In this document: positions 43,730-60,044 of the stretch, piece after piece
Layout of the letters: each line of letters opens with the position of its first letter
Position numbering within the stretch: position 1 is the first letter of the stretch
DNA from: Cyanobacteria bacterium P01_A01_bin.123
GTDB taxonomy: Bacteria > Cyanobacteriota > Cyanobacteriia > Phormidesmidales > Phormidesmidaceae
Direction: 5' to 3'
Length of the DNA stretch: 64,000 nucleotides
Assembly (NCBI GenBank): GCA_039815185.1
Contig: JBCBZT010000018.1
Location: 1 to 64,000 of the forward strand
Translations under genes and position numbers: made by a program
The notes under the pieces: generated by a model
What the model was told of the DNA's origin: nothing
Databases searched by the model: none
What the model saw: only the letters and a program-made list of their open reading frames with translations

Positions 43730-43760
43730 ATGCCTAATCGTAATGGCCTTGGTTGCGGCC

Positions 43761-44165
43761 ATGGCCGAAGCTCCGATGCCTCCCTCTGAGTCTAAAGGAC
43801 GAATCCTAGTTATCGAAGACGACGCAGCTAATCTCAAGCTACTGGTAGATTACCTTGAGCACCTTAATTACGCAGTGCTCGGGTTAGAAGAAGGTCGCCG
43901 TCTACTCCAGCATTTGACGTCTTTTCGACCCCATGTGATCTTGCTCGACATTAAGCTGCCGGGACCTTCCGGGTATCATTTGATCCAACAGGTTAGACAA
44001 CATCCCCTCTGGCAAAGGCTACCAATTGTGGTACTTTCCGGCTATGCGTTTGCCACCGATCGACAAAAAGCCCTTGATTTGGGGGCCAACGACTATCTGG
44101 TTAAACCCGTAAAGCTCCAACAGCTGAGACAGCGAATTGAGCAAGCCTGCGATTTAAGTCCCTAA
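43761..44165 (+). CDS. Single-domain response regulator
   Basis: ILVIEDD, LLDIKLP, GANDYLVKP; start uncertain. Confidence 0.88.
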   Translation: MAEAPMPPSESKGRILVIEDDAANLKLLVDYLEHLNYAVLGLEEGRRLLQHLTSFRPHVILLDIKLPGPSGYHLIQQVRQHPLWQRLPIVVLSGYAFATDRQKALDLGANDYLVKPVKLQQLRQRIEQACDLSP

Positions 44166-44345
44166 ATCCTCAGTATCTTCCGTATTCAGGTAGTCTTCGA
44201 CGGTTTGGCTCAGGGAATGAAGGGCATCTCCAATGCCATTGACCCGAGTCTCCAATTGGGAGACAACTAAAACTAAGGTTTGTAGTTGGTTGAGTACATC
44301 GCTGATCTCTTCGCGATATTGCTGTTCAAAGGTTTGCTTATCCAT
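44154..44345 (-). CDS. Small coiled-coil hypothetical protein
   Basis: 63-aa ATG ORF with heptad pattern. Confidence 0.6.
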   Translation of the reverse strand: MDKQTFEQQYREEISDVLNQLQTLVLVVSQLETRVNGIGDALHSLSQTVEDYLNTEDTEDLGT

Positions 44346-44779
44346 TGGGATTAATCGATTTCAGGAAGGAACACACCGACACCCCTGGATCGATCCTTGA
44401 TCAAGCTCAATCCGAGGTATCTTCCCATTAATTCACAATCTGAAGAGCAAAATACCAAGAAAGTTTTGTAAATTATCAAAAAAATACGTATCCTTTAATG
44501 CTATTAAGGGGACTTTACATTCGTAGATTTTGCATCGATCGGCCAATTCAGTTAAATGCTGTGCTGCTTTCAGGCTAAAGCAAAGATCAGATTGTCCTCT
44601 TTTTCTCGTGGCAGTGGTGGCAAGAGTATGTGTAGTATAAATTACCTCTATGGCTAAGTATTTATTCTGTGGGAGAATTCTAGGGCTAAGATCTCGTTAG
44701 TCTCCTTAGTTATTCGCCATGAGCACCATCACCGAGCGTAAAAGCCAAGTGCAGCGCATCCAAAAGTTGGGCTTTGGAG

Positions 44780-44887
44780 ATGGCTCCCCTAGTCAGTCTG
44801 ACTGATTTGGCAGTGCTTGGCTCTCAAGAGAATCCGCTCAGCGATCGCGCCTGTCCACCACAATCCGAGACAATCTGCTCGTTCTGA
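44780..44887 (+). pseudogene. LRR gene relic (last repeat plus C-cap only)
   Basis: Manual translation MAPLVSLTDLAVLGSQENPLSDRACPPQSETICSF* matches the C-terminus of the neighbouring LRR genes. Confidence 0.8.
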
Positions 44888-45087
44888 GCCCTGCATGCAA
44901 TTTCATGGCTTTTGGGGGAATGATGCGATCAAGGCAGCAGGGAAAAACTGTATAGGTTCTCTAGCCTGTGAGATAAGAAAACTTGTGAAGGCCAATAGGG
45001 TTTTGCTAGTTAAAGCGGTCATGCCGTAAGCGGGGTTCTCCCGAGCATGAACCCTTTGGAGGCCGCCGAAACTCAGGAGGAGTGGCC

Positions 45088-45244
45088 ATGAAGCGCGCGA
45101 TCGCGATCGGTTTGCTGCCGATTTAATAGTGTCGATGTCACTCCCCTCAACCGCTTGACAAATTTAGAGGTGCTTTCTTTGGCGGGCAATGACATCAGCG
45201 ATCGCACTTGCCCCGTGCAACCCGAAACCGTTTGTCGGTTTTGA
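45088..45244 (+). pseudogene. Internally deleted LRR gene relic
   Basis: GGAGG RBS, MKRAIAIGLLPI* then VDVTPLNRLTNLEVLSLAGNDI-SDRTCPVQPETVCRF*. Confidence 0.85.
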
Positions 45245-45302
45245 CCCTGCCCCTGCCCGTGGCGGCATGGCTGCACAGAACACAAAACTAGGAGGTATGA
45301 CC

Positions 45303-46016
45303 ATGAAACCGATTCACATTGTTGGGCTATCGGTGCTTGTGGCGAATGTCGGTTGTACCAGCACTACAGACTTAAACAACAAAACTGCCTCAGAACCACC
45401 TGAATCACCAAAACCTGAAATCACGGCCCCAAATGAGACTGTATCAGCAACGGCTGAAGGGTTTGCCACCTTTGCCGACTGGTGTCTAAACCGAGAGAGT
45501 TTATCTCCAGAGGCGCTGCATACCGTTGAGCTGCTCTTAGAGAAAGCCGGAACTCAGGACTGTAGCTCAGCGCAAGAAAGTCTGGGCAATCTGAGTGACC
45601 TTATGCTCAGTAACAGCCAAGCTATAGAACTGGCACCGTTGGCCAGCCTGACCCACCTAAGCAGGCTTGACCTCAGCCGCAATCAAATTGTGGATGTGGC
45701 TCCCTTAGCCAACCTGACTAACTTGACTGGGCTTTATCTCAGCGATAACGAAATTGTAGATGTGGCCCCGTTAAATCGTTTGAACCGTCTGAGCGAACTT
45801 TCTCTGGCGGGCAATGACATCGCCGATGTGGCCCCACTCGCGAATCTGACTAACTTGGCCACACTTGATCTCTACAACAACGCCATTACAGATGTGACTC
45901 CCTTAGCGGCACTGAGCGAGTTGACCCTGCTTTACCTGGGCGAAAATCCACTCAGCGATCGCACCTGCCCTCTGCAACCCGAGACCATTTGCATCTTCTC
46001 TAACATCGTTCCTTAA
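45303..46016 (+). CDS. Internalin-like LRR lipoprotein (6 repeats)
   Basis: GGAGG RBS, lipobox NVGC, N-cap FATFADWCLN, 22-aa LRRs, C-cap NPLSDRTCP..ETIC. Confidence 0.88.
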   Translation: MKPIHIVGLSVLVANVGCTSTTDLNNKTASEPPESPKPEITAPNETVSATAEGFATFADWCLNRESLSPEALHTVELLLEKAGTQDCSSAQESLGNLSDLMLSNSQAIELAPLASLTHLSRLDLSRNQIVDVAPLANLTNLTGLYLSDNEIVDVAPLNRLNRLSELSLAGNDIADVAPLANLTNLATLDLYNNAITDVTPLAALSELTLLYLGENPLSDRTCPLQPETICIFSNIVP

Positions 46017-46198
46017 CAGCCTGAAACTATCTGTCAGTTATGACTCCCAAATGCGATCGCTTCAGGAAAAAATGGGATTAGGCAACAGAGAAAAACAGCA
46101 TAAGTTATTCGACTTGCGAAATAAGGAATCTGTGAGGGCCAATGGTGGCCTTCCTCAAGGGGCAACCTGGAATCCATAAAGCATCATGAAGAGTCACC

Positions 46199-47308
46199 AT
46201 GAAGGACGCGATCGCCATCGGCTTATTATTTTTTTTATGCGCGAATTGTGGAAATGTCATCGCTCAAAATGAGACTGCTTCAGACTCGTTTGAAACCTTT
46301 GCCGATTGGTGTCTGAATCAAGACCGTCTATCCCCAGAAGCTCAGCTTACCGTCGAGGCGTTATTAACTAGGGCTGGAACGCAGGATTGCAACCAGGCTG
46401 AAGCAGTGCTCACCAATCTGACCCAACTTACCTTTTATGGGGGTACCAGTGATGGCATCGTCGATCTTGCGCCCTTTGCCAGCTTGACCCATCTGACTGA
46501 GCTGACCCTCAATGGCCAAGGCATCGTTGATGTCACGCCTTTAGCCCGTTTGACCCAGCTGACCACGCTTGAACTCAATCAAAATAACATCGTAGACGTG
46601 ACCCCCTTAGCCGGTTTGACGAACCTGGCCAAGCTTGAACTGGGAGATAATCACATCGCGGATGTGACTCCCCTAGCAAGTTTGACTCAGCTAACCAAAC
46701 TTGACCTTAGCGGCAATGAAATTGTAGATGTCGCACCGCTCTCTAGCCTCACCAACCTAACCTGGCTGATGCTTGTAGGCAATCAAATCGTGGAGGTATC
46801 TCCCTTAGCCAGTCTGACCGATCTGGGATGGCTTTTTCTAGATAGCAATCAAATTACGGACGTCGCTCCCTTCGGGAGTCTGACCCAGCTAAAAGCGCTG
46901 TCTATTGGTAACAACCTAATTATTGATGTGACTCCGCTGGCCAACCTGACCGATTTAGATGCACTCTGGCTCCAAGGTAATCAGATTGCGGACGTTTCGC
47001 CGCTAACAAATATGACCGGTTTGTCGCTACTCTACATTGCGGATAATCAAATCACGGATATCGCCTCATTAGCGAATCTGACGAATCTAAACGAGCTTTG
47101 GCTCAATCACAATCAAATTGCAGACGTCGCTCCGTTAGCCAGTCTAACCAGACTTACGGAGCTTGACCTCAGCCACAATCAAATCGTGGATGTGAGCCCA
47201 TTAGCCAGCCTAATACATCTGACCGACCTTAATCTGCGTGAAAATCCGCTCCGCGATCGCACTTGCCCCGTGATATCCGACACCCCCTACACAATCTGCT
47301 GGTTTTGA
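46199..47308 (+). CDS. Internalin-like secreted LRR protein (13 repeats)
   Basis: Signal MKDAIAIGL, FETFADWCLN cap, 22-aa LRRs, NPLRDRTCP. Confidence 0.9.
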   Translation: MKDAIAIGLLFFLCANCGNVIAQNETASDSFETFADWCLNQDRLSPEAQLTVEALLTRAGTQDCNQAEAVLTNLTQLTFYGGTSDGIVDLAPFASLTHLTELTLNGQGIVDVTPLARLTQLTTLELNQNNIVDVTPLAGLTNLAKLELGDNHIADVTPLASLTQLTKLDLSGNEIVDVAPLSSLTNLTWLMLVGNQIVEVSPLASLTDLGWLFLDSNQITDVAPFGSLTQLKALSIGNNLIIDVTPLANLTDLDALWLQGNQIADVSPLTNMTGLSLLYIADNQITDIASLANLTNLNELWLNHNQIADVAPLASLTRLTELDLSHNQIVDVSPLASLIHLTDLNLRENPLRDRTCPVISDTPYTICWF

Positions 47309-47371
47309 CCCCCTTTACTTGAGCGCTGCTGTATTCGCGACAAGGGCTCCCCATCTCCCTGCAAAAACAGC

Positions 47372-47890
47372 TCACGCCTCACCATGCACATATAAATCGA
47401 AGTACTCATCAGTGTCGATGTTGTAGTGAATCTGAAAGTAACAGTCTCCCCCATCCAGAGGAGGCCCTCCCCCATCCATTAAATCCTCGACTGAGGCATT
47501 GCAGAAAAAGCTGGTATAGATAATTGCTTCACCATCAGTAGTGAAGTAGCCAAAATACTGACGGCCATAGTCTGGCAGCGCTTCCTCCAAAGGCCGCACT
47601 GGGTTAAAGCCAACGCCATCGCTCAATCGCTCGTCTGTGAGCAGGGCAGGCAGAATCTGCGCTTCCAAGTGGGCAATGTCTGCGGCAGAAGGTGACCAAA
47701 ATTCGACAGTGTCGGCAGTCATAGGTATATCAAGGCGTTGCCGCTCTGCCTCAGCGGCACTAAAGATCACACCAAGGTAGTCTGGCTCTTGAATCAAAGT
47801 TGTCGGAGGTGCAGGTGTCTCCACCGCGCATCCGGCCAGACTAATCGCAATGGGCATAACGATGGTAAAGAACAGTCTTGAAAGTGGCAT
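47372..47890 (-). CDS. Hypothetical lipoprotein
   Basis: Lipobox LAGC; YGRQYFG, DGGDCYF motifs. Confidence 0.75.
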   Translation of the reverse strand: MPLSRLFFTIVMPIAISLAGCAVETPAPPTTLIQEPDYLGVIFSAAEAERQRLDIPMTADTVEFWSPSAADIAHLEAQILPALLTDERLSDGVGFNPVRPLEEALPDYGRQYFGYFTTDGEAIIYTSFFCNASVEDLMDGGGPPLDGGDCYFQIHYNIDTDEYFDLYVHGEA

Positions 47891-48173
47891 CTTGATTTCT
47901 CTCCCATTTGCTCGAAGCTATGTCTGAGGCGATTCAGGTGTGTTGCTCGTTCTGAGTGGGATTGGAGCCGATGCGATCGCCCTCAACAGCATTACTGTTG
48001 AGTTAACTTCACCGCCACCGCAGCCAGTTCTGGATCTCTCTAGTATTTGTTTGGACGGTGATCAAGTTAACTGCATAAGTTATTCGACTTGCGAAATAAG
48101 AAACCTTTGAGGGCCAATGGCGGCCTTCCTCAACGGACAACCTGGAAGCCACAAAGCATCAAGAGGAGTCACC

Positions 48174-49265
48174 ATGAAGGGTGCGATCGCGATCGGTTTA
48201 TTATGCGCGAGTTGTGGAAATGCCATCGCTCAAAACGAGACTGCTTCAAACTCGTTTGAAACCTTTGCCGATTGGTGTCTGAATCAAGACCGTCTATCCC
48301 CAGAAGCCCAGCTTACCGTCGAGGCGTTATTAACCAGGGCTAGAACGCAGGATTGCAACCAGGCTGAAGCGGTGCTCACTAATCTGACCCAGCTTACCTT
48401 TTATGTGAGTACCAGTGAGGGCATCGTCGATCTTGCTCCCTTCGCCAGCTTGCCCCATCTGACTGAGCTGACCCTCGATGGGCAAGACATCGTCGATGTG
48501 ACCCCGCTCGCCAGTTTGACCCAGCTGACTCAGCTAACTCTCGCAGGCAATAATCTCACAGATGTGTCTCCCCTAGCCAGTTTGACGAATCTCGCGAAGC
48601 TTGACCTGCGAGATAATTGCATCGCCGATGTGGCTCCCTTAGCGAATCTAACCGAGCTGCTCCAGCTTGACCTCAGCAACAATGCGATTGTAGATATTGC
48701 TCCGCTTGCTAGCCTTACCCACCTGACCGCGCTGATACTTTCGGGCAATCAAATTGTGGAGGGGGCTCCCTTAGCCAGTCTGACCTATCTCAGAACGCTG
48801 ACCCTCGATGACAACCAAATTGTAGAGGTGGCTCCCTTAACCAATCTGACCCATCTCAGAACGCTGACCCTCGGTAACAATCAAATTGCCGATGTCACCC
48901 CATTGGGTAGTCTGACAAGTTTGGATGCGCTTTGGCTTTACGACAATCAAATCGCTGATGTCACCCCGCTAGCGAACTTGAGCGATCTGTCGTTGCTTTA
49001 CCTGGCAGACAACCAAATCACGGATGTCAGCCCGTTAGCGAGCCTGACACAGCTCAATGAGCTTTGGCTTTATGACAATCAAATTGCAGACGTGGCGCCG
49101 CTAGCGAGTCTGACCAATCTTATCAAGCTTGACCTCAGCCAAAATCAAATTGCCGATGTGAGTCCGTTAGCGAGTCTGACATATCTCAGCAAACTGGATC
49201 TGGGTGAGAATCCGCTGCGCGATCGCACTTGCCCCGTGCAACCCGAAACTATCTGTCAGTTCTGA
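48174..49265 (+). CDS. Internalin-like secreted LRR protein (13 repeats)
   Basis: GAGGAG RBS, MKGAIAIGL, near-identical 5' part to the 46199 gene, C-cap NPLRDRTCPVQPETICQF. Confidence 0.9.
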   Translation: MKGAIAIGLLCASCGNAIAQNETASNSFETFADWCLNQDRLSPEAQLTVEALLTRARTQDCNQAEAVLTNLTQLTFYVSTSEGIVDLAPFASLPHLTELTLDGQDIVDVTPLASLTQLTQLTLAGNNLTDVSPLASLTNLAKLDLRDNCIADVAPLANLTELLQLDLSNNAIVDIAPLASLTHLTALILSGNQIVEGAPLASLTYLRTLTLDDNQIVEVAPLTNLTHLRTLTLGNNQIADVTPLGSLTSLDALWLYDNQIADVTPLANLSDLSLLYLADNQITDVSPLASLTQLNELWLYDNQIADVAPLASLTNLIKLDLSQNQIADVSPLASLTYLSKLDLGENPLRDRTCPVQPETICQF

Positions 49266-49429
49266 TGCCCGAACGCGATCGCCTCTGAGACCAGGAAGCA
49301 AGGCCATACTGCATAAGTTCTCCGGTCTATGACATGGGAAACCTGTGAAGGCCAATGGTGGCTCTCTGCTTGGGGCATGACTTCTGCAATTCAAAATCGC
49401 AAATCCATAATTGATCACACCCTTGAGTT

Positions 49430-49487
49430 CTATCTATAATATTTGTTTTGCAAATATTATAGATAGTTATTTATATAAATTACTTAT
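49430..49487. promoter_or_regulatory. Perfect inverted repeat and LysR-type box upstream of flv4
   Basis: CTATCTATAATATTTG-TTTTG-CAAATATTATAGATAG (16-bp arms) and ATAA-N5-TTAT at 49475-49487. Confidence 0.55.
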
Positions 49488-49581
49488 CAAAAGCTTTTAA
49501 GATTGACATTTTACAGTTGGTGGGGCGAGCGCAATTATAAAGGTAAGCCTATCGACCACTCAGAAAGGATAGACAAACTTC

Positions 49582-51318
49582 ATGATTGCCCTGACTGATT
49601 CGCGCCAAACTGCTCAAGCATCTAATCGACTAACGCTTCAAACTGCAACCATCGCCCAGAACTCCACAGCTATTCGCTGCCTCGACTGGGACCGTGATCG
49701 CTTCGATATTGAGTTTGAGTTGCAAAATGGCACAACCTACAATTCGTTTCTGATTCGGGGCGATAAAACTGCCCTGGTCGATACGTCCCATCGCAAGTTC
49801 GAGTCTCTCTACTTCGATAGCCTGATGGGCTTGGTTAACCCGGCTGAAATTGACTACCTAATCGTCAACCACACCGAACCAGACCACAGCGGCCTGATTC
49901 AAGCGCTGCTGAAGCTAGCCCCCCAGATTACCGTTGTGGGATCTAAGGTGGCTATTCAGTTTTTAGAAAATCAGGTCCACTGCACCTTCAAAGCCCATCG
50001 AGTCAAAAGTGGCGACCGTCTAGATTTGGGCCAGGGCCACCAGCTCGAATTTATCTCAGCACCTAACCTGCACTGGCCCGATACCATCTTCACCTATGAC
50101 CATGGCACCCAGGTGCTCTATACCTGTGATGTCTTTGGCATGCACTACTGTGATGACGCCCTCTATGACGAGGCACCGCAGCTTCTAGATGCTGATTTTC
50201 AGTATTACTACGATTGCTTAATGGGCCCCAACGCCCGGTCGGTGCTGGGAGCGCTGAAGCGGATGGCTCCTTTTTCTATCGATCTGGTGGCCACGGGCCA
50301 CGGGCCTTTGCTGCGGCACCATAAGGAAGATTGGATTAGCCATTATCGTACCTGGAGCGAAACCCAATCAAAAGCTGCCCCCTTTGTGGCCGTGTTTTAC
50401 ACCGATGGCTATGGCTACAGCGATCGCATTGCCCACACCATTGCGCAAGGCATCAGTAAAACGGGTACGGATGTGGAGCTGATGGATGTGCAGGAAGCCG
50501 ACGCCCATGACGTGCGAGAACTGGTTAGCGAAGCGGCTGGCCTAGTGATTGGCATGCCGCCCCAGGCAGAAGCCGACACCAGTTTGCATCCCATCCTCAG
50601 CACAATTTTGGCAGCCGCCCATGATAAGCAAGCCATCGGCCTGTTTGAAACCGGGGGTGGCCATGACGAACCGATTTATCCCTTGCGGAATCGGTTTCAA
50701 GAATTGGGACTGACAGCAGCCTTTGCGCCCATTGTGATTAAGGCAACGCCATCAGCAGCCACAGACAAACTTTGCGAAGAAGCAGGAACTGACCTGAGTC
50801 AATGGCTGAATCGAGACCGTACTCAGCGGCAAGTTAAATCGCTGAATGCCCATTTAGACCAGGCTTTAGGACGCCTTAGCAGTGGATTGTATCTTCTGAC
50901 TGTGCGCAAGGGGAATGTCACCGGGGCTATGTTGGCTTCCTGGGTGATTCAAGCTAGCTTTCAACCCCTGGGAGTCGCGATCACCGTTGCCAAAGACCGC
51001 GCCATTGAATCGCTTTTGCAAGTGGGCGACAGCTTTGTCCTCAATGTTTTGGAAGAAGGCGACTACCAGCCCTTGATGAAGCATTTTCTGAAGCGATTTC
51101 CCCCTGGTGCCGACCGCTTTGCAGGCATTGCGACCTACGACGCCACCAATGGCTCTCCCATTTTGGCAGACGCACTGGCCTATCTAGAATGCACCGTTAC
51201 CCGTCGGTTGGAAGCTAGCGATCACTGGATTGTCTATTGCACCGCCAAAGCCGGACGGGTTGCCAACTCAGATGGATTAACCGCTGTTCATCATCGCAAA
51301 GTCGGCAGTCATTACTAA
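49582..51318 (+). CDS. flv4: Flavodiiron protein Flv4
   Basis: Canonical HTEPDH, HWPD, CDVFG, TGHG ligands; flavodoxin and flavin reductase domains; first gene of flv-PsiE-flv operon. Confidence 0.85.
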   Translation: MIALTDSRQTAQASNRLTLQTATIAQNSTAIRCLDWDRDRFDIEFELQNGTTYNSFLIRGDKTALVDTSHRKFESLYFDSLMGLVNPAEIDYLIVNHTEPDHSGLIQALLKLAPQITVVGSKVAIQFLENQVHCTFKAHRVKSGDRLDLGQGHQLEFISAPNLHWPDTIFTYDHGTQVLYTCDVFGMHYCDDALYDEAPQLLDADFQYYYDCLMGPNARSVLGALKRMAPFSIDLVATGHGPLLRHHKEDWISHYRTWSETQSKAAPFVAVFYTDGYGYSDRIAHTIAQGISKTGTDVELMDVQEADAHDVRELVSEAAGLVIGMPPQAEADTSLHPILSTILAAAHDKQAIGLFETGGGHDEPIYPLRNRFQELGLTAAFAPIVIKATPSAATDKLCEEAGTDLSQWLNRDRTQRQVKSLNAHLDQALGRLSSGLYLLTVRKGNVTGAMLASWVIQASFQPLGVAITVAKDRAIESLLQVGDSFVLNVLEEGDYQPLMKHFLKRFPPGADRFAGIATYDATNGSPILADALAYLECTVTRRLEASDHWIVYCTAKAGRVANSDGLTAVHHRKVGSHY

Positions 51319-51457
51319 AAACACTGCTCTTTTTGCGCTTGCAGGCCTGTCTGACCCTTCGCATTGCGACAGCCACCCATGATGAGCTTGAGCGCCAGGT
51401 AGGGCATGACTGCTGCAATCCAAAATCGCAAATTCAAAATCCAAAATCAGTATCATC

Positions 51458-51982
51458 ATGCAATCCTCATCTTCATCTCCCTCCCCCCGTTGGGCCACCT
51501 GGCTCAGCAACATTCATATCGTTCGCGTCCTAGAACTGGTTCAAGACTTGATTGTGATTTCTCTTTGCATTGGGCTGTTCAGCTTTATGGTGATGCAGCT
51601 ACGAGAGATGTTCGTGTCGCTGCTGCCGCCTCTGAACTTTCCCCATGTCACTGCGGATATTCTGTTCCTGCTGATTATGGTGGAACTGTTTCGGTTGCTG
51701 ATTATTTACCTGAAAGAGCATCGGGTCTCCATTGGCGTGGCAGTAGAAGTGTCGATCGTTTCGGTGCTACGGGAAATTATTGTGAACGGCGTGCTTGAAA
51801 TCCCTTGGACTCAAGTGTTGGCGACCTGCTCTTTTCTGCTCGTCTTAGGAGCCTTATTGGTCATCCGGGTCTGGATTCCGCCCACCTTTGATGGCGTTGA
51901 CCCAGAGCAGCAAGTTTCTCGCCGTCACCGGATTCGGTTTGCCCACGATTTAGCGGAAATGAGCGGCAAACAAGACCATTGA
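51458..51982 (+). CDS. Sll0218-like PsiE family membrane protein
   Basis: 4 TM, ADILFLLIMVELFRLL, VSVLREII; lies between two flv genes. Confidence 0.85.
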   Translation: MQSSSSSPSPRWATWLSNIHIVRVLELVQDLIVISLCIGLFSFMVMQLREMFVSLLPPLNFPHVTADILFLLIMVELFRLLIIYLKEHRVSIGVAVEVSIVSVLREIIVNGVLEIPWTQVLATCSFLLVLGALLVIRVWIPPTFDGVDPEQQVSRRHRIRFAHDLAEMSGKQDH

Positions 51983-52133
51983 TGGCTTCAGTCCCCATTA
52001 GACAGGGTTCCTACTCCCATAATCAATCCCCCTTAATCCCATGGTTTACTCCACAAATTCTCAACCTATCTCCATGCAAGCAACGCCCCGCCCCAGAGAT
52101 GTCTAGGTCGCCGAGATTGCGCAACAAACTCAA

Positions 52134-53795
52134 GTGTTGCGATCGCGCACCTGGGATCGCCTCAAGTTTGAAGTCGAATATGGACGCCGCTGCGGCACCA
52201 CAGCAAACTCCTATCTGATTCGGGGTGATAAAACAGCCGTCATTGATCCGCCGGGTGAGTCCTTCACCTGGATTTACATAGAAGCCTTACAGCAACAGGT
52301 CGAATTTAGCGATATCGACTACATCATCACCAGCCATGTCAATTCCAACCGCATGGCAACCCTAGAACAGCTCCGAGAATTGGCTCCCCAAGCGATTATT
52401 GTTTGCTCTCGTCCAGCGGCTAATGCCCTCAAGAACGCCTTGCTTGCCTGGGAAGATTCCCTGTATGCTGTCCGCTCGGGTGAAAGTCTGGATCTGGGTC
52501 AGGGTCACCACTTAGAGTTTACGACTGTCCCTACCCCCCGCTGGCCCGATGGGCTTTGCACCTATGATCTGGCGACCCAGATTCTCTATAGCGACAAGCT
52601 GTTTGGGGCACACATTTGTAGCGAAACCCTGTGGGATGAGAACTACCGGAAACTAGAAGCTGATCGACGTTACTATTTTGACTGCCTTCAAGCGCTCCAG
52701 GCTCGCCAGGTAGAAACCGCCCTCGACCAGTTTGAAACGCTGCCGTTACAGTGCCTTGCCCCTGGCCATGGCCCCCTGGTACGCCACAGCCTCAGCCGAT
52801 TGCGCCAGGATTATCGGCAATGGTGCCAACAAGAAACCCAACGGAGTTTGCGAGTAGCTTTGCTCTATACCTCGGCCTATGGCAACACTGCTAAAGTCGC
52901 AGATGCGATCGCCAACGGGCTAACGACTGCCAACGTGGCGGTCGAGTCGATCAACTGTGAGTCAACCCCACCGGAGGACATTGCCCAAATGATCAAAGCC
53001 TGCGATGGATTCATCATTGGATCACCCACCTTGGGAGGGCATGCGCCGGTTCAAATTCAAACGGCGCTAGGCAGTATTTTGGCGAACGTTCCTAAAACTA
53101 AACTGGCTGGGGTCTTTGGTTCCTATGGTTGGAGTGGCGAGGCAATTGGCCTACTCGATCAAAAGCTGCGGGATGCAGGCTACTGCTTTGGCTTTGACCC
53201 CATCCGGGTTCGATTTAGCCCCGACAAAGCCATCCTGTCCCTTTGCAAAACTGCCGGAAATCAATTTGCGCAGCAACTCCGAAAGCGGTCAAAACAGCAG
53301 GTTCCCCGACAGGTTGTAACAGGTGCCCAAGCCAATCGCACTGCCCAGGCTATAGGTCGGGTAATCGGGTCTCTCTGCGTGGTCACCAGTCGCCAGCATG
53401 ATATCCATAGCGGCATTTTGACCACCTGGGTTACCCAAGCCACGTTTACCCCACCGGGGCTAATGCTTGCCTTACCAGCCCATGACCCCGTGTTTAGTGA
53501 CTTGCAGCCAGGCCAGCCTTTTGTACTCAACATTCTCAAAGAAGGTCGCACCATTCGGCGTCACTTTTCTGCCCAGCAGTCCACTCAGACTGCCTTTTCC
53601 CATCTGAATACTCGCCCCGCTGAAAACGGCAGTCTAATTATCACCGATGCCTTGGCTTATCTGGAATGCACGGTTCAAGCAGGTATACCTGCTGGCGATC
53701 ATCAGCTGATCTATGCCCAAGTTTTGACTGGCAGCCTGCTGGGATCGGATGGGGTGACCGCCGTTCAGCATCGTAAGTCTGGCAGTCAGCACTGA
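52134..53795 (+). CDS. flv2: Flavodiiron protein Flv2 (N-terminus interrupted by TAG at 52104; possible pseudogene)
   Basis: RSRTWDRLKFEVEY, non-canonical HVNSNR, PRWPD, SDKLFG; conserved start lies upstream at ATG 52074 or 52041. Confidence 0.8.
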   Translation: MLRSRTWDRLKFEVEYGRRCGTTANSYLIRGDKTAVIDPPGESFTWIYIEALQQQVEFSDIDYIITSHVNSNRMATLEQLRELAPQAIIVCSRPAANALKNALLAWEDSLYAVRSGESLDLGQGHHLEFTTVPTPRWPDGLCTYDLATQILYSDKLFGAHICSETLWDENYRKLEADRRYYFDCLQALQARQVETALDQFETLPLQCLAPGHGPLVRHSLSRLRQDYRQWCQQETQRSLRVALLYTSAYGNTAKVADAIANGLTTANVAVESINCESTPPEDIAQMIKACDGFIIGSPTLGGHAPVQIQTALGSILANVPKTKLAGVFGSYGWSGEAIGLLDQKLRDAGYCFGFDPIRVRFSPDKAILSLCKTAGNQFAQQLRKRSKQQVPRQVVTGAQANRTAQAIGRVIGSLCVVTSRQHDIHSGILTTWVTQATFTPPGLMLALPAHDPVFSDLQPGQPFVLNILKEGRTIRRHFSAQQSTQTAFSHLNTRPAENGSLIITDALAYLECTVQAGIPAGDHQLIYAQVLTGSLLGSDGVTAVQHRKSGSQH

Positions 53796-53870
53796 GTGAG
53801 TGATGTATGCCATAGTTCAAGAAACTGAATCGCTTCTGGAGTTGGTCAAGGGGTGATGCGTAAGTGATCT

Positions 53871-54737
53871 ATGGTTTACATTCAACTAACGCTAACGGCC
53901 ATTATTTGGGGCGGTACCTTTATTGCTGGGCGTGTGGTTGTGGCTGAAATGGGGGCATTTTCGGCTGCTTTTCTGCGTTTTGCAGTCGCTTCGCTCTGTC
54001 TGTTGCTGATGGCGCATCAATTTCAAGATGGGTTGGTCAAACTCAAGCTACGCCAACTGCCATATTTGATTTTGCTGGGTTTGAGCGGCGTATTTGCTTA
54101 CAACATTTTCTTTTTTCTGGGTCTCCAAACCATTACGGCTGGGCGAGCGTCCTTAATTGTGGCGCTCAATCCGATCGCGATCGCCTTGTTTTCAGCGTTG
54201 ATTTTAAGAGAGCGACTCACACTATTGAAATTCGTAGGCATTGCGACGTCTCTGTTAGGGGCAGCCATTGTGATTGGTCAAGGTAATCCGTTGGGTTTAC
54301 TATCGGGTGGCTTACAGCAGGGAGATTTATTTGTGTTGGGGTGTGTTGCCAGTTGGGTGGTTTACACGCTGGTAGGTAAGCAAGTGATGGCATCGCTGTC
54401 ACCCTTTGTGGCAACAACCTATGCTTGTCTAATTGGGGCTGCAGCACTTTTACCCTTAGCCCTCTATAACGGCTTGATTCAAGACTTACGGCAACTGTCA
54501 CCCGTGGCTGGTTTTGGGATTCTGTATCTAGGGTTGTTGGGTTCTGCAGTAGGCTTTAGCTGGTATTACACCGGGGTAAAAGCCATTGGTGCGGCTAAAG
54601 CCGCTATTTTTATCAACTTAGTGCCACTCTCTGCGATTCTGTTAGCGGCTGTGTTATTAAAGGAACCGATTACATCAGCTTTGGCAATCGGGGGTGGATT
54701 GGTGATTGTTGGTGTTTTTTGTACTAACCGGGGTTAG
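53871..54737 (+). CDS. DMT/EamA family transporter
   Basis: IWGGTF, LRFAVA, two EamA repeats, about 10 TM. Confidence 0.92.
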   Translation: MVYIQLTLTAIIWGGTFIAGRVVVAEMGAFSAAFLRFAVASLCLLLMAHQFQDGLVKLKLRQLPYLILLGLSGVFAYNIFFFLGLQTITAGRASLIVALNPIAIALFSALILRERLTLLKFVGIATSLLGAAIVIGQGNPLGLLSGGLQQGDLFVLGCVASWVVYTLVGKQVMASLSPFVATTYACLIGAAALLPLALYNGLIQDLRQLSPVAGFGILYLGLLGSAVGFSWYYTGVKAIGAAKAAIFINLVPLSAILLAAVLLKEPITSALAIGGGLVIVGVFCTNRG

Positions 54738-54810
54738 CTGCCTCTGAGATAATCAGTGAAAGCTAGGTTTGTGTGCAGCTTGTCTATTGTCATCTTGTTT
54801 AGGTGCTGTC

Positions 54811-56235
54811 ATGCTTCATGATCCCGATCAGGCTGATCTGTTTCCTAAGTTGTCTGAAGCAGATCTGCAAAAAATTGCCAACCAGGGCAAAGAGCGCCAG
54901 TTTTCCGATGGCGCAATTCTATTTTCTCAGGGCGATTTGACCTATCCGTTTTATATCGTGTTGACCGGTGAAGTCCGCATTAGTAAACAAGTCGGCGGAG
55001 AAACCCAGCTGCTAACAATTCACGGGCCAGGTGAATTCACCGGAGACATTAGCATGATGGCGGGCAACCCAGCGATGGTTACCGCACAGGCCGTTGGTTC
55101 CATTCGTGTGTTGGAGTTCTCGCCGGAAGGCTTTCGTCGCGTGATTGCCGAGTGTTCACGTTCTGCAGCGGTGATTTTGACGGCGATGGCAGGGCGTTCG
55201 GAAGACGTGGGCGTTCAGCTCCAGCAACAGGAAAAACTGGCTGCATTAGGTAAACTCTCAGCCGGGTTGGCCCATGAGCTGAACAATCCAGCAGCAGCAG
55301 CGGTGCGGGCCTCAAAACAGTTGCGTGAGTCGCTGCACCAGTTGCAGCAGCAAACCCTCGCGCTGTCGCAGCAAACCTTGTCAACCCAACAGCAGCAGGA
55401 ACTCCAACAGGTGCAAGATTTTGCCCTGGCCTGCCGCAGCAATGTCACGTCGCTGACGCCGTTAGAGCAGGGGGAACGCGAAGATGCCTTGGCAGACTGG
55501 CTGGATGATCGCGACATTGCCGACAGTTGGAAACTGGCCCCAGAGTTGGTGACAGGTGGCGTCGACGAAGCCTATCTGAGTCAGCTTGAGGATGCCGTGG
55601 GGCGTAAGCATTTGAGCAGTGCGCTGCATTGGCTGGAAGGTAATCTCACGGTGGCATCGCTGGTGTATCAGGTTGAGCACAGTACACAGCGGATCTCAGA
55701 ACTGGTTAAAGCGCTCAAATCCTACACCTATATGGATCAAGCGCCCCTGCAAGAAATCGATATCCATCAAGGCCTGGAAGATACGCTGACGATTTTGCAT
55801 CACAAGTTGAAGTACGGCATTGCCGTAGAACGAGACTATGATCTAGCGTTGCCCAAGATTTGTGCCTACGGCAGTGAGCTGAACCAAGTCTGGACTAACC
55901 TGCTAGACAATGCCATCGATGCCCTAGGCAGTGGTCAGAATTTAGCCCAAAAGCCTGACGGCCCTCGAATTACCATTCACACCTGCCAGAAAGCGGATTA
56001 CGTCCAGGTGGACATCATTGATAACGGGTCTGGGATTTCTGAAGACGTGCGATCGCAGATTTTTGAGCCATTTTTCACGACGAAGGGCGTCGGTGCTGGC
56101 ACAGGGCTGGGGCTAGACATTGCCCACCGGATTGTGGTCAAGCGACATGGCGGTTCTATTCGGGTGACTTCCCAACCCGGCGACACCTGCTTTCAAGTTT
56201 GCTTGCCCTTCCGTCCTCCTACACAAACCCCCTAG
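54811..56235 (+). CDS. cNMP-binding domain sensor histidine kinase
   Basis: cNMP domain (LFSQGD, GPGEFTG), LAHELNNP, ELNQVWTNLLDNAIDA, DNGSG, FFTTK, GTGLGL. Confidence 0.92.
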   Translation: MLHDPDQADLFPKLSEADLQKIANQGKERQFSDGAILFSQGDLTYPFYIVLTGEVRISKQVGGETQLLTIHGPGEFTGDISMMAGNPAMVTAQAVGSIRVLEFSPEGFRRVIAECSRSAAVILTAMAGRSEDVGVQLQQQEKLAALGKLSAGLAHELNNPAAAAVRASKQLRESLHQLQQQTLALSQQTLSTQQQQELQQVQDFALACRSNVTSLTPLEQGEREDALADWLDDRDIADSWKLAPELVTGGVDEAYLSQLEDAVGRKHLSSALHWLEGNLTVASLVYQVEHSTQRISELVKALKSYTYMDQAPLQEIDIHQGLEDTLTILHHKLKYGIAVERDYDLALPKICAYGSELNQVWTNLLDNAIDALGSGQNLAQKPDGPRITIHTCQKADYVQVDIIDNGSGISEDVRSQIFEPFFTTKGVGAGTGLGLDIAHRIVVKRHGGSIRVTSQPGDTCFQVCLPFRPPTQTP

Positions 56236-56272
56236 TCGGAGGTCACAATTAACCTAGGCGTACGAAGGCGAT

Positions 56273-57087
56273 ATGACGATGGTTAAGTCTCAGTTCATGC
56301 CGATAGTCGGATTTGTGATCACGGGGTTAGCACTGGTGAGTTGTGCCTCCCCAAATTCGGCTCAGTCAGAATCACCCCCCAACCCGACTCCCTCGGCTGC
56401 CGATGCCGCTAGTGCTGATGCATCAGCCCCCACTATCGATTTCTCGTCTGGGATGCTCGGGGTCACGGACAATCGCAACCTATGGGTTCCAGCTTTTCGC
56501 TCGATACCTGTGCCCAAGATATGCTGGCTATTCTCGACGATATGAAAGTTTCGCAGGCAGTGTTTTGTGGTCAATCACTCGGCGGCTATATCGCTCAACA
56601 AATCTATTTTTCTGCCCCTGAGCGTATGCAGGCGATAATCATTATCGGCGCTACCCCCATCGCCAAAGCGTACAGCAAATTTGAAATCTGGGTGCTCAAA
56701 GCCAGCTTGCCTCTCTTCCGATTCTGGCCCTATGGCCATTTCACTCAAGCGGTGGCTAGGAATACGGCTCAGACCCAACTAGTACAGGACTATGCGCTCC
56801 AGGCAATTCGGCAGGTTAACCGAGAGGATTTTCTTTCAATTTGGCGGGCTGTCACCCTAGCTGTTGATGATCAAGGCCAACCCGAACTGACAATTGATGT
56901 GCCGTTGTTATTAGTCCATGGGGATCAGGACGGGGTAGGCAGCATCAAGCGAGACATGCCCATTTGGGCAACCCAGGAGAAGAAGGCAACCTATCACGTT
57001 ATCCCTAACGCTGGGCATAATGCCAACCAAGACAATCCGACGTTTACGAACCAGGTTATTGTCGAGTTTCTAGCACGCGATCGCTGA
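56273..57087 (+). pseudogene. Out-of-frame chimera: lipoprotein leader plus N-truncated alpha/beta hydrolase
   Basis: Frame A MTMVKS..LVSC..AADAASADAS; frame B from ~56425 PHYRFLVWDARGHGQS..GQSLGG..HGDQD..AGHNANQD; no HG oxyanion segment. Confidence 0.7.
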
Positions 57088-57342
57088 TGATTTGAGAGCA
57101 CTGCAAGCACGCGACCTAGCTCGCTGTAGCGCACCAAGCTTGATAGCGACGGCCATCCCAGCGCAGCAAAGACAAAACAGTATAAGTTCTCCTATGTGCG
57201 ACATAGGAACCTTCTGAGGGCTACTGAAGATTGCGCCGGGTAAAACGATAAAGCAGAGCGTGTGCAGCTAGAACTTTGACTTGGCGTATTGAGCAATCTG
57301 ACTAACGCCGTAATACTGTGCTTGAAATCGGGAGAAGGGGCT

Positions 57343-58092
57343 ATGACTAAAGCGATCGCGATCGGTTTACTATCAAGTCTGGTTGCAGTTACGTGCGCGA
57401 CAACCGTTGTCGCGCAAACCGAAAGTTCTACAGAATCATTTGAAACCTTTGGTGACTGGTGTCGTAACCGGATCCGTTTGACCCCAGCAGCCGAGCATAC
57501 CGTCAACGTGCTAATAGAAGAGGCTGGAACCACGGATTGCCAGCAGGCAGAAGAGACACTCACCAATTCGATTGAGCTTGATCTCAGTGGCCGTCAAATA
57601 GCAGATGTATCCCCTTTAGGCAGTTTGACCCATCTGACTCGTTTAGGCTTGCGTGACAACCAAGTTGGGGATGTAACCCCGTTAGCTAGGCTCACCAACT
57701 TGAGAGGGCTGGGGCTGAGTAACAATGTCATTAGAGATGTAGCCCCGCTCACGAATTTGACGAATCTGACATTGCTCAACCTCGCACACAATCAAGTCGA
57801 GGATGTCACACCATTGGCCGAACTCACCAACCTCAATAACCTTTTTCTCGATGACAATGCCATCGCAGATGTAGCCCCATTAGCCGGGCTGACCAACTTG
57901 AGAACGCTTTGGCTTTGGAATAACGACATTGTGGATGCAACCCCATTAGCCAGTTTGACGGGTCTGCAAAGACTGTATTTGGGTGCTAACCCACTTAATG
58001 ATTGCACCTGTCCCATCCAACCCGAAATCAGCTGTCAGAGCGATGACCGTTCAGCTCGGTGTCAGTTCGGTGACCCCATGTACGGTCGCTGA
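57343..58092 (+). CDS. Internalin-like secreted LRR protein (7 repeats)
   Basis: MTKAIAIGL, FETFGDWC cap, 22-aa LRRs, NPLNDCTCPIQPEISC. Confidence 0.88.
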   Translation: MTKAIAIGLLSSLVAVTCATTVVAQTESSTESFETFGDWCRNRIRLTPAAEHTVNVLIEEAGTTDCQQAEETLTNSIELDLSGRQIADVSPLGSLTHLTRLGLRDNQVGDVTPLARLTNLRGLGLSNNVIRDVAPLTNLTNLTLLNLAHNQVEDVTPLAELTNLNNLFLDDNAIADVAPLAGLTNLRTLWLWNNDIVDATPLASLTGLQRLYLGANPLNDCTCPIQPEISCQSDDRSARCQFGDPMYGR

Positions 58093-58146
58093 TTGATTGT
58101 TTGAAGACAAGCACAACACTGCGCTCAAAAATTGGGAGGCGTGGCT

Positions 58147-58641
58147 ATGGCGAAAGCAATTGTTATCGGCTTGCTATCAATATTCGCGATTGGCGCAACT
58201 TGTACACACGTTGCGTTTCAAAGCGAAGCCCCTCTTGCCAGCTTGAGTCGTCTCAACGCCCTTGATCTAAGTCGCACTAGAATCACCGATATGTTGCCGC
58301 TAGCCAATCTGAACAATCTGACTCGCCTGAACTTTTATCAAAATCAAATTGCAAATGTTGCACCATTGTAGAACCTGACGGCGCTGACTAACCTTGACCT
58401 GGGGCGCAAGCAAATCACAGATGTGACTCCTCTAGCGAGCCTGACCAATTTGGCTTGGCTTGACCTCAATAACAATCAAATTACGGATGTATCTGCACTA
58501 GCTGATTTGCCCAATCTGACAACCCTCGTCCTAGTCGATAATCCACTTAATGATCAAACTTGCCCACGGCAACCTGAAACGATCTGTGAGTTTGAGTTTT
58601 ACAACCCCCGTGACGCGCTGCCACCACAGTCATATCCCTAA
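58147..58641 (+). pseudogene. LRR pseudogene (N-cap deleted, in-frame TAG at 58369)
   Basis: MAKAIVIGL signal joined directly to APLASL; ..VAPL*NLTALTNLDL continues in frame to NPLNDQTCPRQPETICEF. Confidence 0.82.
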
Positions 58642-58784
58642 TCGCAACTGACCTGGACAAACACCTACACAAACCACCTGACCGGAGGTCACAATTGACC
58701 TAAATAGGCTTTGGTGACAATTGAGCGCGTGGGTATGACCCATCGCTCAGCCTTAACTCAAACACGGTCAGCTAAGAAGGAGAG

Positions 58785-60044
58785 ATGACGATGGTCAAGT
58801 ATCGTGGCCTGTCAACGGTTGGGGCAGTCGTCGGGGTCATCCTGATCGGATGTACGTCTACTAATCCAGTGCCGCCAGCATCACAGGCCAACCCAAGCTC
58901 AGATGCCCCTGCCGCCGATGCCTCTGCTGCCAGTGATGCGGTAGCGTCTAACGATGAGAATTCATCTGGCGCAGCGATCGCGCAGGTACAAACTGCCCAA
59001 CAAATTACCCTAGTTGAGGGTCTAGAACACCCCTGGGGAATGGCGTGGCTACCGGATGGCAACCTACTTGTAACCGAACGTCCCGGTAGAGTGCGGATTA
59101 TTCGGGATGGCGAGCTTGCCCCGACCCCAGTGCCCGGTGTCCCGGCAGTATTGGGTGCAGGACAAGGGGGTTTGCTCGATATCTCCGTTCACCCCCAGTT
59201 TGCTGACAACCAATGGGTTTATTTCACCTATGCCCACGGCGCCAGTAACGCCAACCAAACCCGCGTGGCTCGTGCTCGGTTTGACGGCAGTACCCTCTCG
59301 GATTGGACGCCGATTTTTGAAGTTAACCGTTCTAAAGAGGGGACTCAGCATTTTGGGTCTCGCATCACCTGGCTACCTGACAACACGATGTTGATCTCCA
59401 TTGGGGATGGTGGCAATCCACCGTTAAGACTTGAGGGAGAATTGATTCGCAATCAGGCTCAAAATCTAGGTAGCCATCTGGGCAAAGTGGTGCGGTTGAG
59501 CGATGATGGCTCAATCCCCGCTGATAATCCCTTTGTCAACACGCCAAATGCTGACCCGGCCCTATGGAGCTATGGCCATCGCAACATCCAGGGAATGGCG
59601 TTCGACCCAGTGACCAATCAGATTTGGGTGACAGAACATGGGTCACGGGGCGGTGATGAGTTGAATCGGGTCGATCCAGGAGAGAATTACGGTTGGCCAC
59701 TCGTCACCCACAGCCAGGAATATTCTGGCGGCGAGATTTCATCGGAGCGATCGCGCCCCGGCATGGTCGATCCCAGTATTGTTTGGACACCCGCGATCGC
59801 GCCCTCTGGCTTAATGATGTATCGGGGCGATCGCTTCCCGCAGTGGCAGGGCAATCTGTTCGCTGGAGGACTGGTATCACAAGATATCAAACGAATTGAG
59901 CTGGATGAGACTGGCACGGTCATTAGCGAGACCCCCATAGCTATTGGGCAGCGGGTGCGCGATGTGCATCAGGGGCCAGATGGGTTAATTTACATCCTGA
60001 CCGATGAACCGAATGGCCGCTTGATTCGGCTGGAACCGGGTTAA
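58785..60044 (+). CDS. PQQ-dependent sugar dehydrogenase (GSDH/YliI family) lipoprotein
   Basis: Lipobox LIGC, GLEHPWGMAWLPDG, GQGGLLD, HFGSRI, SYGHRNIQG, EHGSRGGDELN, RVRDV. Confidence 0.92.
   Translation: MTMVKYRGLSTVGAVVGVILIGCTSTNPVPPASQANPSSDAPAADASAASDAVASNDENSSGAAIAQVQTAQQITLVEGLEHPWGMAWLPDGNLLVTERPGRVRIIRDGELAPTPVPGVPAVLGAGQGGLLDISVHPQFADNQWVYFTYAHGASNANQTRVARARFDGSTLSDWTPIFEVNRSKEGTQHFGSRITWLPDNTMLISIGDGGNPPLRLEGELIRNQAQNLGSHLGKVVRLSDDGSIPADNPFVNTPNADPALWSYGHRNIQGMAFDPVTNQIWVTEHGSRGGDELNRVDPGENYGWPLVTHSQEYSGGEISSERSRPGMVDPSIVWTPAIAPSGLMMYRGDRFPQWQGNLFAGGLVSQDIKRIELDETGTVISETPIAIGQRVRDVHQGPDGLIYILTDEPNGRLIRLEPG

What the first reader, a model, noticed from the sequence alone, without database searches (positions are those of the whole stretch)
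44780..58641. Modular array of secreted LRR binding proteins with constant caps, variable repeats and relics
Seen: at least seven members of one gene family. Four are intact (45303 with 6 LRRs, 46199 with 13, 48174 with 13, 57343 with 7) and three are broken (44780, 45088, 58147). All use the same parts: signal (mostly MKxAIAIGL), cap FxTFxDWC..AGTQDC, 22-aa repeats, and cap NPLxDRTCPxQPETIC. The breaks remove whole modules. Known: internalin/VLR-type LRR solenoids bind ligands through the exposed xxLxLxx strand positions. Inference: a birth-and-death repertoire of surface or periplasmic recognition proteins diversified by repeat shuffling, perhaps for phage, predator or neighbour recognition, in a free-living cyanobacterium. 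This is my best candidate for an undescribed system here.
Basis: partly seen in the sequence, partly recalled or inferred. Interest (0 to 1): 0.8.

Follow-up and report, generated by a model that had tools for sequence, protein, structure and literature searches.

The report
Cyanobacterial secreted variable LRR binder repertoire
This marine cyanobacterium carries clustered copies of a gene family for predicted exported leucine-rich-repeat binding proteins that change by ordinary gene gain, loss and recombination and share a DNA motif that likely puts them under a protease-linked sigma factor, so they may be an inducible set of catchers for foreign proteins.

Summary
In detail: four intact genes (6, 13, 13 and 7 repeats) and three relics, plus a fourth mini-relic and an orphan promoter-like site. 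They belong to an unnamed cyanobacterial family of signal-peptide-bearing, cysteine-capped, internalin-type LRR solenoids (cap in 74 of 401 phylum genomes; 11 intact genes here).

Birth and death is supported: relics, a block missing in a related strain, and a homogenised 5' end in B and C. Recent repeat shuffling in this array is not: orthologues in strains are colinear, and no cross-gene repeat pair exceeds 86% identity. In other cyanobacteria, young repeats differ mainly at concave-face codons (pN/pS about 2.4, no adenine bias). No programmed diversifier was found.

New here: five sites in the array carry a two-box motif also found before TPR-CHAT and caspase genes and before the sigma-like gene of the EACC2-caspase/DUF1822 system (first box before 21 of 27 sigma orthologues). 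The same capped LRR is fused to TPR-CHAT elsewhere. The link is lineage-specific, and the ligand is unknown.

The scan has noted the variable-face pattern and this sigma motif on other DNA, separately.

The parts
44780..44887 (+). Relic 1: last repeat plus C-cap only
44950..44977 (+). Two-box promoter-like motif M1, before relic 2 and gene A
45088..45244 (+). Relic 2: truncated signal, frame change, last repeat plus C-cap
   Evidence: strain X5 has 611 more bases between 44606 and 45131
45303..46016 (+). Gene A: lipoprotein-like signal, linker, N-cap, 6 LRR, C-cap
   Evidence: orthologues 4-5 residues different
46017..46043 (+). Mini-relic of a C-cap end (QPETICQL*); 46017-46063 is 83% like the end of C
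46098..46125 (+). Motif M1 before gene B
46199..47308 (+). Gene B: signal, N-cap, 13 LRR, C-cap
   Evidence: AlphaFold2 pLDDT 91.5
47372..47890 (-). Rare predicted lipoprotein, no Pfam family; beside LRR-family genes in two other genomes
48073..48100 (+). Motif M1 before gene C
48174..49265 (+). Gene C: signal, N-cap, 13 LRR, C-cap; 5' part 85-98% identical to B, later repeats 65-82%
49311..49338 (+). Orphan motif M1 with no LRR gene behind it (likely a deleted gene)
56273..56430 (+). Second 5' end of the sugar dehydrogenase gene at 58785; left edge of the block 56430-58962 that strain X5 lacks
57180..57207 (+). Motif M1 before gene D
57343..58092 (+). Gene D: signal, N-cap, 7 LRR, C-cap
58147..58641 (+). 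Relic E: signal, no N-cap, 5 repeats with an internal TAG, C-cap; closest to the second gene on contig C95

Best explanation
The window holds two clusters of a cyanobacterial gene family whose products are predicted to be exported, disulphide-capped leucine-rich-repeat solenoids that likely bind, and would thereby block or mark, variable foreign proteins at the cell envelope, with the clustered genes likely switched on by a caspase-linked sigma factor. Shown: the anatomy, the relics, presence/absence among strains, a 5' part that is far more alike between neighbours than the repeats are, adjacent repeat duplications in paralogues, excess amino-acid change on the concave face in several relatives, and the shared upstream motif. 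Predicted: Sec or lipoprotein export, two cap disulphides, the horseshoe fold. Inferred: the motif is the promoter of the sigma-like protein of the EACC2-caspase/DUF1822 operon on contig C78; a signal at its CHASE2-CHAT membrane protease frees the sigma factor, which turns on secreted TPR-CHAT and caspase proteases together with these LRR genes; the concave strands catch attacker proteins (enzymes, toxins or phage parts), as plant PGIPs do. Diversity comes from ordinary duplication, deletion, recombination between repeats and selection over evolutionary time, not from a programmed rearrangement.
For: Fold: AlphaFold2 pLDDT 91.5, pTM 0.87; best Foldseek matches are the C. tepidum Roco LRR and internalin A. 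Four cysteines are invariant in 20 of 20 full-length members. Hydrophobic N-termini, no catalytic or anchor domain. Turnover: strain X5 lacks 56430-58962 and has 611 extra bases at the relic site; one neighbourhood holds 1, 2 or 3 genes in three genomes. Selection: in 109 young repeat pairs from 12 genomes, concave pN 0.20 against pS 0.082 (ratio 2.45; 1.9 using only those codons' own silent sites), buried pN 0.002-0.003, convex 0.045; 10 of 13 genomes with 3 or more pairs exceed 1. G706, whose array holds the same lipoprotein gene, gives 1.74 on 13 pairs. Regulation: a matrix trained only on five LRR-linked sites finds a TPR-CHAT gene (29.7) and the sigma operon (24.7) above the best score of five shuffles (19.6-22.3); it scores p<=0.05 before 18 of 27 sigma orthologues in relatives. 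A matrix trained only on relatives' sigma sites gives 20 hits of 20 or more here against 2-3 in each of four shuffles; they include 6 CHAT/caspase genes, 2 TPR genes, the sigma gene and 2 LRR genes (C95 gene rank 3, gene C rank 19). The capped LRR is fused to TPR-CHAT with His-Cys motifs in other cyanobacteria. Kaur 2021 (PMC8195603) predicts this sigma system to be conflict-related.
Against: No ligand, expression or localisation data. In this lineage selection is not shown: B against C gives 0.64-0.66, family relatives 0.62 (6 pairs) and 0.90 (21 pairs). Some members are fixed: A is nearly invariant among strains, and a 10-repeat gene on C43 is colinear in two other genomes, with concave pN/pS 0.23-0.49. 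With the relatives-trained matrix four of the five window sites score only 15.4, 12.5, 10.9 and 9.0, within shuffle background. The motif scores 13 or more before only 1 of 75 family genes in other genomes and at 2 places in 20 further loci. The sigma query finds nothing in three genomes with 6-15 cap matches or in G449 and G473. Five other family genes in this genome carry a different motif. The sigma-like protein has no Pfam hit of its own. The pN/pS test uses spanning-tree pairs of recombining repeats from related genomes, so its p-values are overstated.
Confidence: 0.5

Rival explanations
1. They are adhesins or colonisation factors that bind surface proteins of eukaryotic hosts or matrix components, as Listeria internalins do.
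For: Closest solved folds are internalins. Related strains occur in marine and coral metagenomes. A Nostoc preprint reports 'internalin' genes in lanthipeptide clusters tied to plant contact and speculates on this role (10.64898/2026.08.14.744816). Host variation could also drive concave-face selection.
Against: No anchor or stalk domain; only A looks lipid-anchored. The family is large in many lineages regardless of a known host. The shared motif points to a protease-linked circuit.
Confidence: 0.22
2. They are parts of the cell's own CHAT/caspase circuit: inhibitors, adaptors or ligands for co-regulated secreted proteases or for the CHASE2 receptor, possibly used for kin recognition between filaments.
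For: Shared motif with TPR-CHAT and caspase genes. LRR-TPR-CHAT fusions of near-constant length (about 1000 and 1134 residues) in many genomes. The constant caps could dock on a self partner.
Against: The biggest, fastest-changing arrays are in genomes where the sigma was not found. Hypervariable concave faces fit a non-self ligand better than a fixed self partner.
Confidence: 0.17
3. A weakly constrained expansion: repeats slip and genes duplicate and die because of their structure, with little function in most copies.
For: Four relics and an orphan promoter in 14 kb. No pN/pS above 1 in this array.
Against: Buried positions are under strong purifying selection (B against C 0.10). A is kept almost unchanged across strains. 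Concave excess in other lineages. Promoter-like sites are kept.
Confidence: 0.08
4. A programmed, VLR-like or retroelement-driven system that assembles or mutates repeats within a population, using the relics as cassettes.
For: Constant caps with variable repeats. In young pairs elsewhere both codons recur in third repeats at 102 of 163 differing concave codons, which shows exchange between repeats.
Against: Colinear orthologues with equal repeat number in runs from four studies. No cross-gene pair above 86% among 10,011 repeat pairs of this genome. Relics hold one to five ordinary repeats and are not near-identical donors. No adenine bias: A takes part in 134 of 240 changes, about what composition gives. 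The recurrence is as frequent at convex codons (57 of 84).
Confidence: 0.03

Closest known systems
Listeria internalins (InlA, InlB, InlF), SDS22-like LRR class
   Same: 22-residue SDS22-like repeats (class definition in PMC2946307), helical N-cap, horseshoe fold (TM 0.78 to InlA), signal peptide, multigene family.
   Different: Cap has an invariant cysteine pair and no Internalin_N hit; no Ig-like domain or wall anchor after the repeats, only a 16-residue cysteine C-cap; scores far below NCBIfam cut-offs (226 against 1600).
Plant polygalacturonase-inhibiting proteins (PGIP)
   Same: Stand-alone extracellular LRR proteins in small birth-and-death gene families that counter attackers' enzymes (PMC4115169, listing and abstract start). 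Cysteine caps and selection on the concave face are recalled.
   Different: Plant-type 24-residue repeats (recalled), eukaryotic, known ligand. Here the ligand is unknown. A functional analogue only.
Secreted LRR proteins of Leptospira
   Same: Expanded family of small capped LRR solenoids; structural hits at E about 1e-17.
   Different: About 25% identity; pathogen context; 23-residue repeats and cadherin binding are recalled, not read here.
EACC2-caspase systems with ECF sigma and DUF1822 (Kaur et al. 2021, PMC8195603)
   Same: The C78 operon (sigma-like, DUF1822, CHAT-CHASE2) has this gene order; the passages read propose protease-triggered transcription of many genes.
   Different: The passages read give no promoter motif and name no LRR targets; the LRR genes lie on other contigs.
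Myxococcus DdvA-DdvS (PMC11506125)
   Same: A TPR-CHAT-linked ECF sigma controls an anti-phage defence island (abstract).
   Different: There the CHAT is periplasmic on the anti-sigma and the targets are CBASS and CRISPR; here the predicted targets are exported proteases and binders.
Lamprey variable lymphocyte receptors
   Same: Constant cysteine caps around variable repeats with a variable concave face (recalled).
   Different: No incomplete germline gene, no cassette library, no evidence of assembly within a population.

Membership tests
SDS22-like LRR class | 21-23-residue repeat with LxxLxLxxNxIxxLxxLxxL pattern | tested here: met
   definition read
Listeria internalins | Internalin_N helical cap | tested here: inconclusive
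   No Pfam hit for the cap in 21 members; three-helix model; TM 0.61 to an Internalin_N part, under the Atlas's bar
Listeria internalins | Ig-like inter-repeat domain after the LRRs, and in most members a wall anchor | tested here: not met
   Proteins end 10-27 residues after the last repeat; no such Pfam hit
Listeria internalins | NCBIfam internalin model cut-off | tested here: not met
   B scores 226/1600 (InlA) and 191/1050 (InlH); A scores 99 and 109
VLR-type programmed assembly | Donor cassettes near-identical to repeats in expressed genes; variants within a population (recalled) | tested here: not met
   Best cross-gene pair 86% and colinear; colinear contigs in four runs. Contigs drop rare variants, so a clonal test is still open
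Diversity-generating retroelement target | Adenine-specific changes against a template repeat (recalled) | tested here: not met
   A in 134 of 240 concave changes with 28% A content; no template copy among direct repeats in 44000-59000
Diversity-generating retroelement target | Reverse transcriptase gene in the genome | not tested
   No genome-wide search was run
Imm-LRR / poly-immunity loci (Zhang 2012) | Next to polymorphic toxin or other immunity genes | tested here: inconclusive
   Neighbours look like flavodiiron proteins, a transporter, a kinase, a hydrolase and a dehydrogenase (by eye; four neighbours scanned); the paper's table row for LRR immunity does not list cyanobacteria; orphan immunity cannot be excluded
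Regulon of the EACC2-caspase/DUF1822 sigma | Shared two-box upstream motif, also before the sigma gene | tested here: met
   strong for gene C and the C95 gene, weaker for the other four window sites with the independent matrix
Regulon of the EACC2-caspase/DUF1822 sigma | Sigma-dependent transcription from that motif | not testable with these tools
   needs start-site mapping or in vitro transcription
PGIP-like secreted inhibitor (works like) | Binds and inhibits a foreign enzyme through the concave face | not testable with these tools
   only the selection pattern is available

The most novel reading that the evidence does not exclude
Filamentous cyanobacteria keep an inducible, antibody-like innate repertoire: up to 17 exported LRR binders per genome with a constant scaffold and a positively selected, recombining binding face. 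A caspase-gated sigma factor releases them together with secreted caspase-like proteases, to which the same module can be fused as a targeting head.
Probability: 0.2. Interest if true: 0.85.

Novelty: new variant of a known kind. Interest (0 to 1): 0.5.

Why it matters
Cyanobacterial 'internalins' appear in annotations and in passing remarks, but nine literature searches (open-access library only) returned no study of this family, its cap, its selection pattern or its regulation. If the reading holds, a free-living bacterium has a variable extracellular recognition repertoire like plant PGIPs, and the untested EACC2-caspase sigma system gains concrete target genes and a promoter that can be assayed. 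The near-identical scaffolds with variable concave codons are also a natural library of binders.

Tried and rejected
Rfam scan of 43000-60000: no match at E<=1, so the upstream element is not a known RNA; a hairpin reading was dropped because fixed spacing of two boxes, not pairing, is conserved. HIP1 sites sit in the signal and C-cap codons, but 19 in 15 kb is about the genome rate of 1.12 per kb, so they were rejected as special recombination sites. A word search with the N-cap region of B found nothing; the full-length search was swamped by long generic LRR proteins. The cap has no sequence match in the PDB (best E 0.58) and no clear fold match (best Z 4.1); this does not show a new fold. 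No relative of C among viral contigs: 14 candidate stretches, none confirmed. No RNA holder was listed, which says nothing on expression. A complex prediction of B with the neighbouring lipoprotein gave no answer (score 0.00); it is no evidence either way. A 228-base contig in run X9 joins 46815 to 46979 with 97 letters between (one repeat shorter), but its shorter side is 24 bases and it may come from a paralogue; not counted. Many joints at 80% likeness were set aside as paralogue cross-matches. The second motif (TTCGGAAT-N15-TGAAG) could not be tied to a regulator. The N-cap tree is mostly unresolved (4 of 21 branches starred), so no gene order of descent is claimed. The Leptospira paper PMC11674859 was seen as a search listing only. 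Supplements were not read; the figure showing 'internalins' in Nostoc clusters is in a bioRxiv supplement that could not be seen and may show members of this family.
Full report
OBSERVATION. The window is G000:C26:1-64000 of an 8.1-Mb cyanobacterial assembly. They form two clusters 8 kb apart. I add a mini-relic at 46017-46043, five copies of an upstream motif and a lipoprotein gene between B and C. The breaks remove the N-cap and whole repeats, but one cuts inside the signal with a frame change and another includes a nonsense codon.

THE FAMILY. The genome has 11 intact members on five contigs. A profile of the N-cap matches 74 of 401 phylum genomes, with up to 15 matches where only 17 candidates per genome were scored, 52 of 121 genomes of the same family, 17 places in G706 and 717 protein clusters at 50% identity. 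Atlas clusters with this cap are mostly cyanobacterial. The cap has no Pfam or PDB sequence match. Sources name members 'leucine-rich repeat domain-containing protein' or 'internalin A'. Tandem arrays of 2-10 genes are common and no neighbour is conserved family-wide. AlphaFold2 on a 20-row alignment gives a three-helix cap and a regular solenoid (pLDDT 91.5), closest to the C. tepidum Roco LRR and internalin A. Four cysteines are invariant in 20 of 20 sequences; two cap disulphides and export are inferred from this and from hydrophobic N-termini. It is not an internalin by membership: no Ig-like domain, no anchor, scores far below the cut-offs. Some relatives fuse the module to TPR-CHAT or pentapeptide repeats.

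HOW THIS ARRAY EVOLVES. B and C align repeat for repeat. Their first 330 coding bases are 85-98% identical per 66-base block and the rest 65-82%. In run X5 the contigs for B and C begin at equivalent places (46480 and 48446), as expected if the 5' parts are identical there. N-caps are also more alike than C-ends in three other tandem pairs (0.91/0.67, 0.87/0.66, 0.79/0.65). I read this as conversion of the constant 5' part. Among 10,011 repeat pairs of this genome the best are two adjacent pairs inside single genes (91%); the best cross-gene pair is 86% and colinear. Three full-length orthologues of A differ at 4-5 residues, none at the four core concave positions. B 46560-47260 is colinear in runs X3, X5, X8 and X9 (5, 59, 15 and 22 differences; X8 and X9 cover part), with only a cancelling pair of one-base gaps. 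Of 71 differences, 40 were listed and 39 classed, in 32 codons: buried 10 silent and 1 changing, convex 6 and 8, concave core 1 and 4, edge 0 and 2. Whole genes come and go: X5 skips 56430-58962 (D, relic E and a hydrolase fragment, flanked by two 5' ends of a dehydrogenase gene) and has 1135 bases where the window has 524 at the relic site (those letters were not shown).

SELECTION. I paired near-identical repeats within each genome by a spanning tree (88% or more). After dropping four genomes that repeat the locus of a close relative, 109 pairs from 12 genomes remained. Concave positions x3, x5, x7 and x8 have pN 0.20 against overall pS 0.082 (ratio 2.45; 1.9 against their own silent sites); buried pN is 0.002-0.003 and convex 0.045. 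Ten of 13 genomes with at least three pairs exceed 1, counted before the four were dropped. Near-identical repeats across genes occur there (for example 12 of 160 and 141 of 279 pairs). Changes show no adenine bias. Codons recur in third repeats at both concave and convex sites, which indicates ordinary recombination. G706 gives 1.74 on 13 pairs at 82%. In this genome and family the ratio stays below 1 (0.64-0.66 for B/C; 0.62 and 0.90). Kin are not independent and this is not a codon-model test.

REGULATION, THE NEW PART. Five window sites share G(C/T)ATA(A/G)GTT-N11-GA(A/C/G)AT(A/G)(A/G)G. The exact pattern has 8 matches in G000, 0 for the reversed control, and one match each in 3 of 60 relatives. 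A matrix from five LRR-linked sites ranks a TPR-CHAT gene and a sigma-like/DUF1822/CHAT-CHASE2 operon as the best other hits, above five shuffles. The sigma-like protein groups with Sigma70_r4-bearing clusters in the Atlas (12-87% of members), and Kaur et al. 2021 describe this neighbourhood as an EACC2-caspase system with an ECF sigma (passages). The LRR-trained matrix scores p<=0.05 before 18 of 27 sigma orthologues; 21 of 27 have the first box, with consensus TGAATA-N16-(C/A)AATA, which has the spacing of an ECF promoter (spacing rule recalled). Trained only on those 21 sites, the matrix gives 20 hits of 20 or more in G000 against 2-3 per shuffle; 12 of the 20 precede CHAT, caspase, TPR, WD40, sigma or LRR genes. 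In G014 and G454 the motif precedes most genes of the sigma loci, including proteases and small peptide genes. Against generality: four window sites are weak with this matrix, only 1 of 75 family genes elsewhere has a site of 13 or more, two more sites appear in 20 further loci, and the sigma was not found in five genomes with many family copies. The link is therefore a local recruitment. Five other members in this genome share a different motif (8 hits against 0-2 in shuffles).

MECHANISM. The most likely reading (0.5) is a set of exported stand-alone binders that catch variable foreign proteins at the envelope and are induced with secreted caspase-like proteases. The steps from motif to induction and from concave variation to ligand class are inferred. 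Rivals are host or matrix adhesion (0.22), a role inside the cell's own CHAT circuit (0.17), a weakly constrained expansion (0.08) and programmed diversification (0.03).

WHAT WAS READ. Passages: 10.64898/2026.08.14.744816, PMC3858816, PMC3482391, PMC2946307, PMC8195603. Abstract and outline: PMC11506125. Search listing with abstract start: PMC4115169, PMC11674859. Facts on VLRs, retroelements, PGIP caps, Leptospira ligands and ECF promoter spacing are recalled. Earlier scan notes on a cyanobacterial LRR pair with a variable face and on this sigma motif in other genomes were seen after my own; they agree but are not independent support. A sequence look-up and a genome look-up in those notes showed nothing.

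VERDICT. Real, and a new variant of a known kind. The array itself is a moderately old, ordinary birth-and-death cluster. The interest lies in the unnamed family, its selected binding face and the testable tie to a caspase-linked sigma factor. Interest 0.5.

Noticed in passing
window 47372-47890 (-); L213, L214, L215, L216: Rare predicted lipoprotein with no Pfam family, in 3 of 301 class genomes and 3 of 131 family genomes. It lies beside LRR-family genes in the window, G706 and G449, but not at its paralogue on C113; 81% identity across two families suggests transfer.
   Followed up: partly
G000 C39:29798, C43:117336/119122/121804, C99:53975; L024: A second promoter-like motif, TTCGGAAT-N15-TGAAG, before five other family genes and a G001 orthologue; regulator unknown.
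   Followed up: partly
G000 C33:3228-16267 (L138): Five motif sites in 13 kb before TPR-CHAT, TPR and caspase genes; likely the main target island of the sigma factor.
   Followed up: partly
L133:17109-20000 (G454): The same motif precedes small genes that look like double-glycine peptide precursors, followed by exporter-like genes (by eye; no Pfam hit at 1e-8).
   Followed up: no
window 53871-54737: A transporter-like gene that strain X5 lacks (contig joins 53782 to 54810), so the region takes up and loses genes beyond the LRRs.
   Followed up: partly
window 56273-57087: A cut-off 5' copy of the sugar dehydrogenase gene fused to a hydrolase gene lacking its start; looks like the junction of an inserted block.
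   Followed up: partly
window 46770-46864 in run X5: Differences cluster in repeats 6-7 of B in X5 but not in X8 or X9, like a conversion patch; no donor repeat could be assigned.
   Followed up: partly
L025, L026, L027, L033, L194: LRR-TPR-CHAT fusions with this cap, in several genomes directly behind an LRR-pentapeptide gene.
   Followed up: partly
window 49582-53795: Two flavodiiron-like genes (named by eye) with a small membrane protein between them separate the LRR clusters; a 39-base repeat sits at 49373 and 51402.
   Followed up: no
window 35636-39013 (-) and 31351-33654 (+): A haemagglutinin-like exported protein and a TPR/glycosyltransferase-like gene lie upstream of the array (named by eye).
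   Followed up: no
window 62657-64000 (-): An ORF of at least 422 residues with no family above cut-off, cut by the window's end.
   Followed up: no
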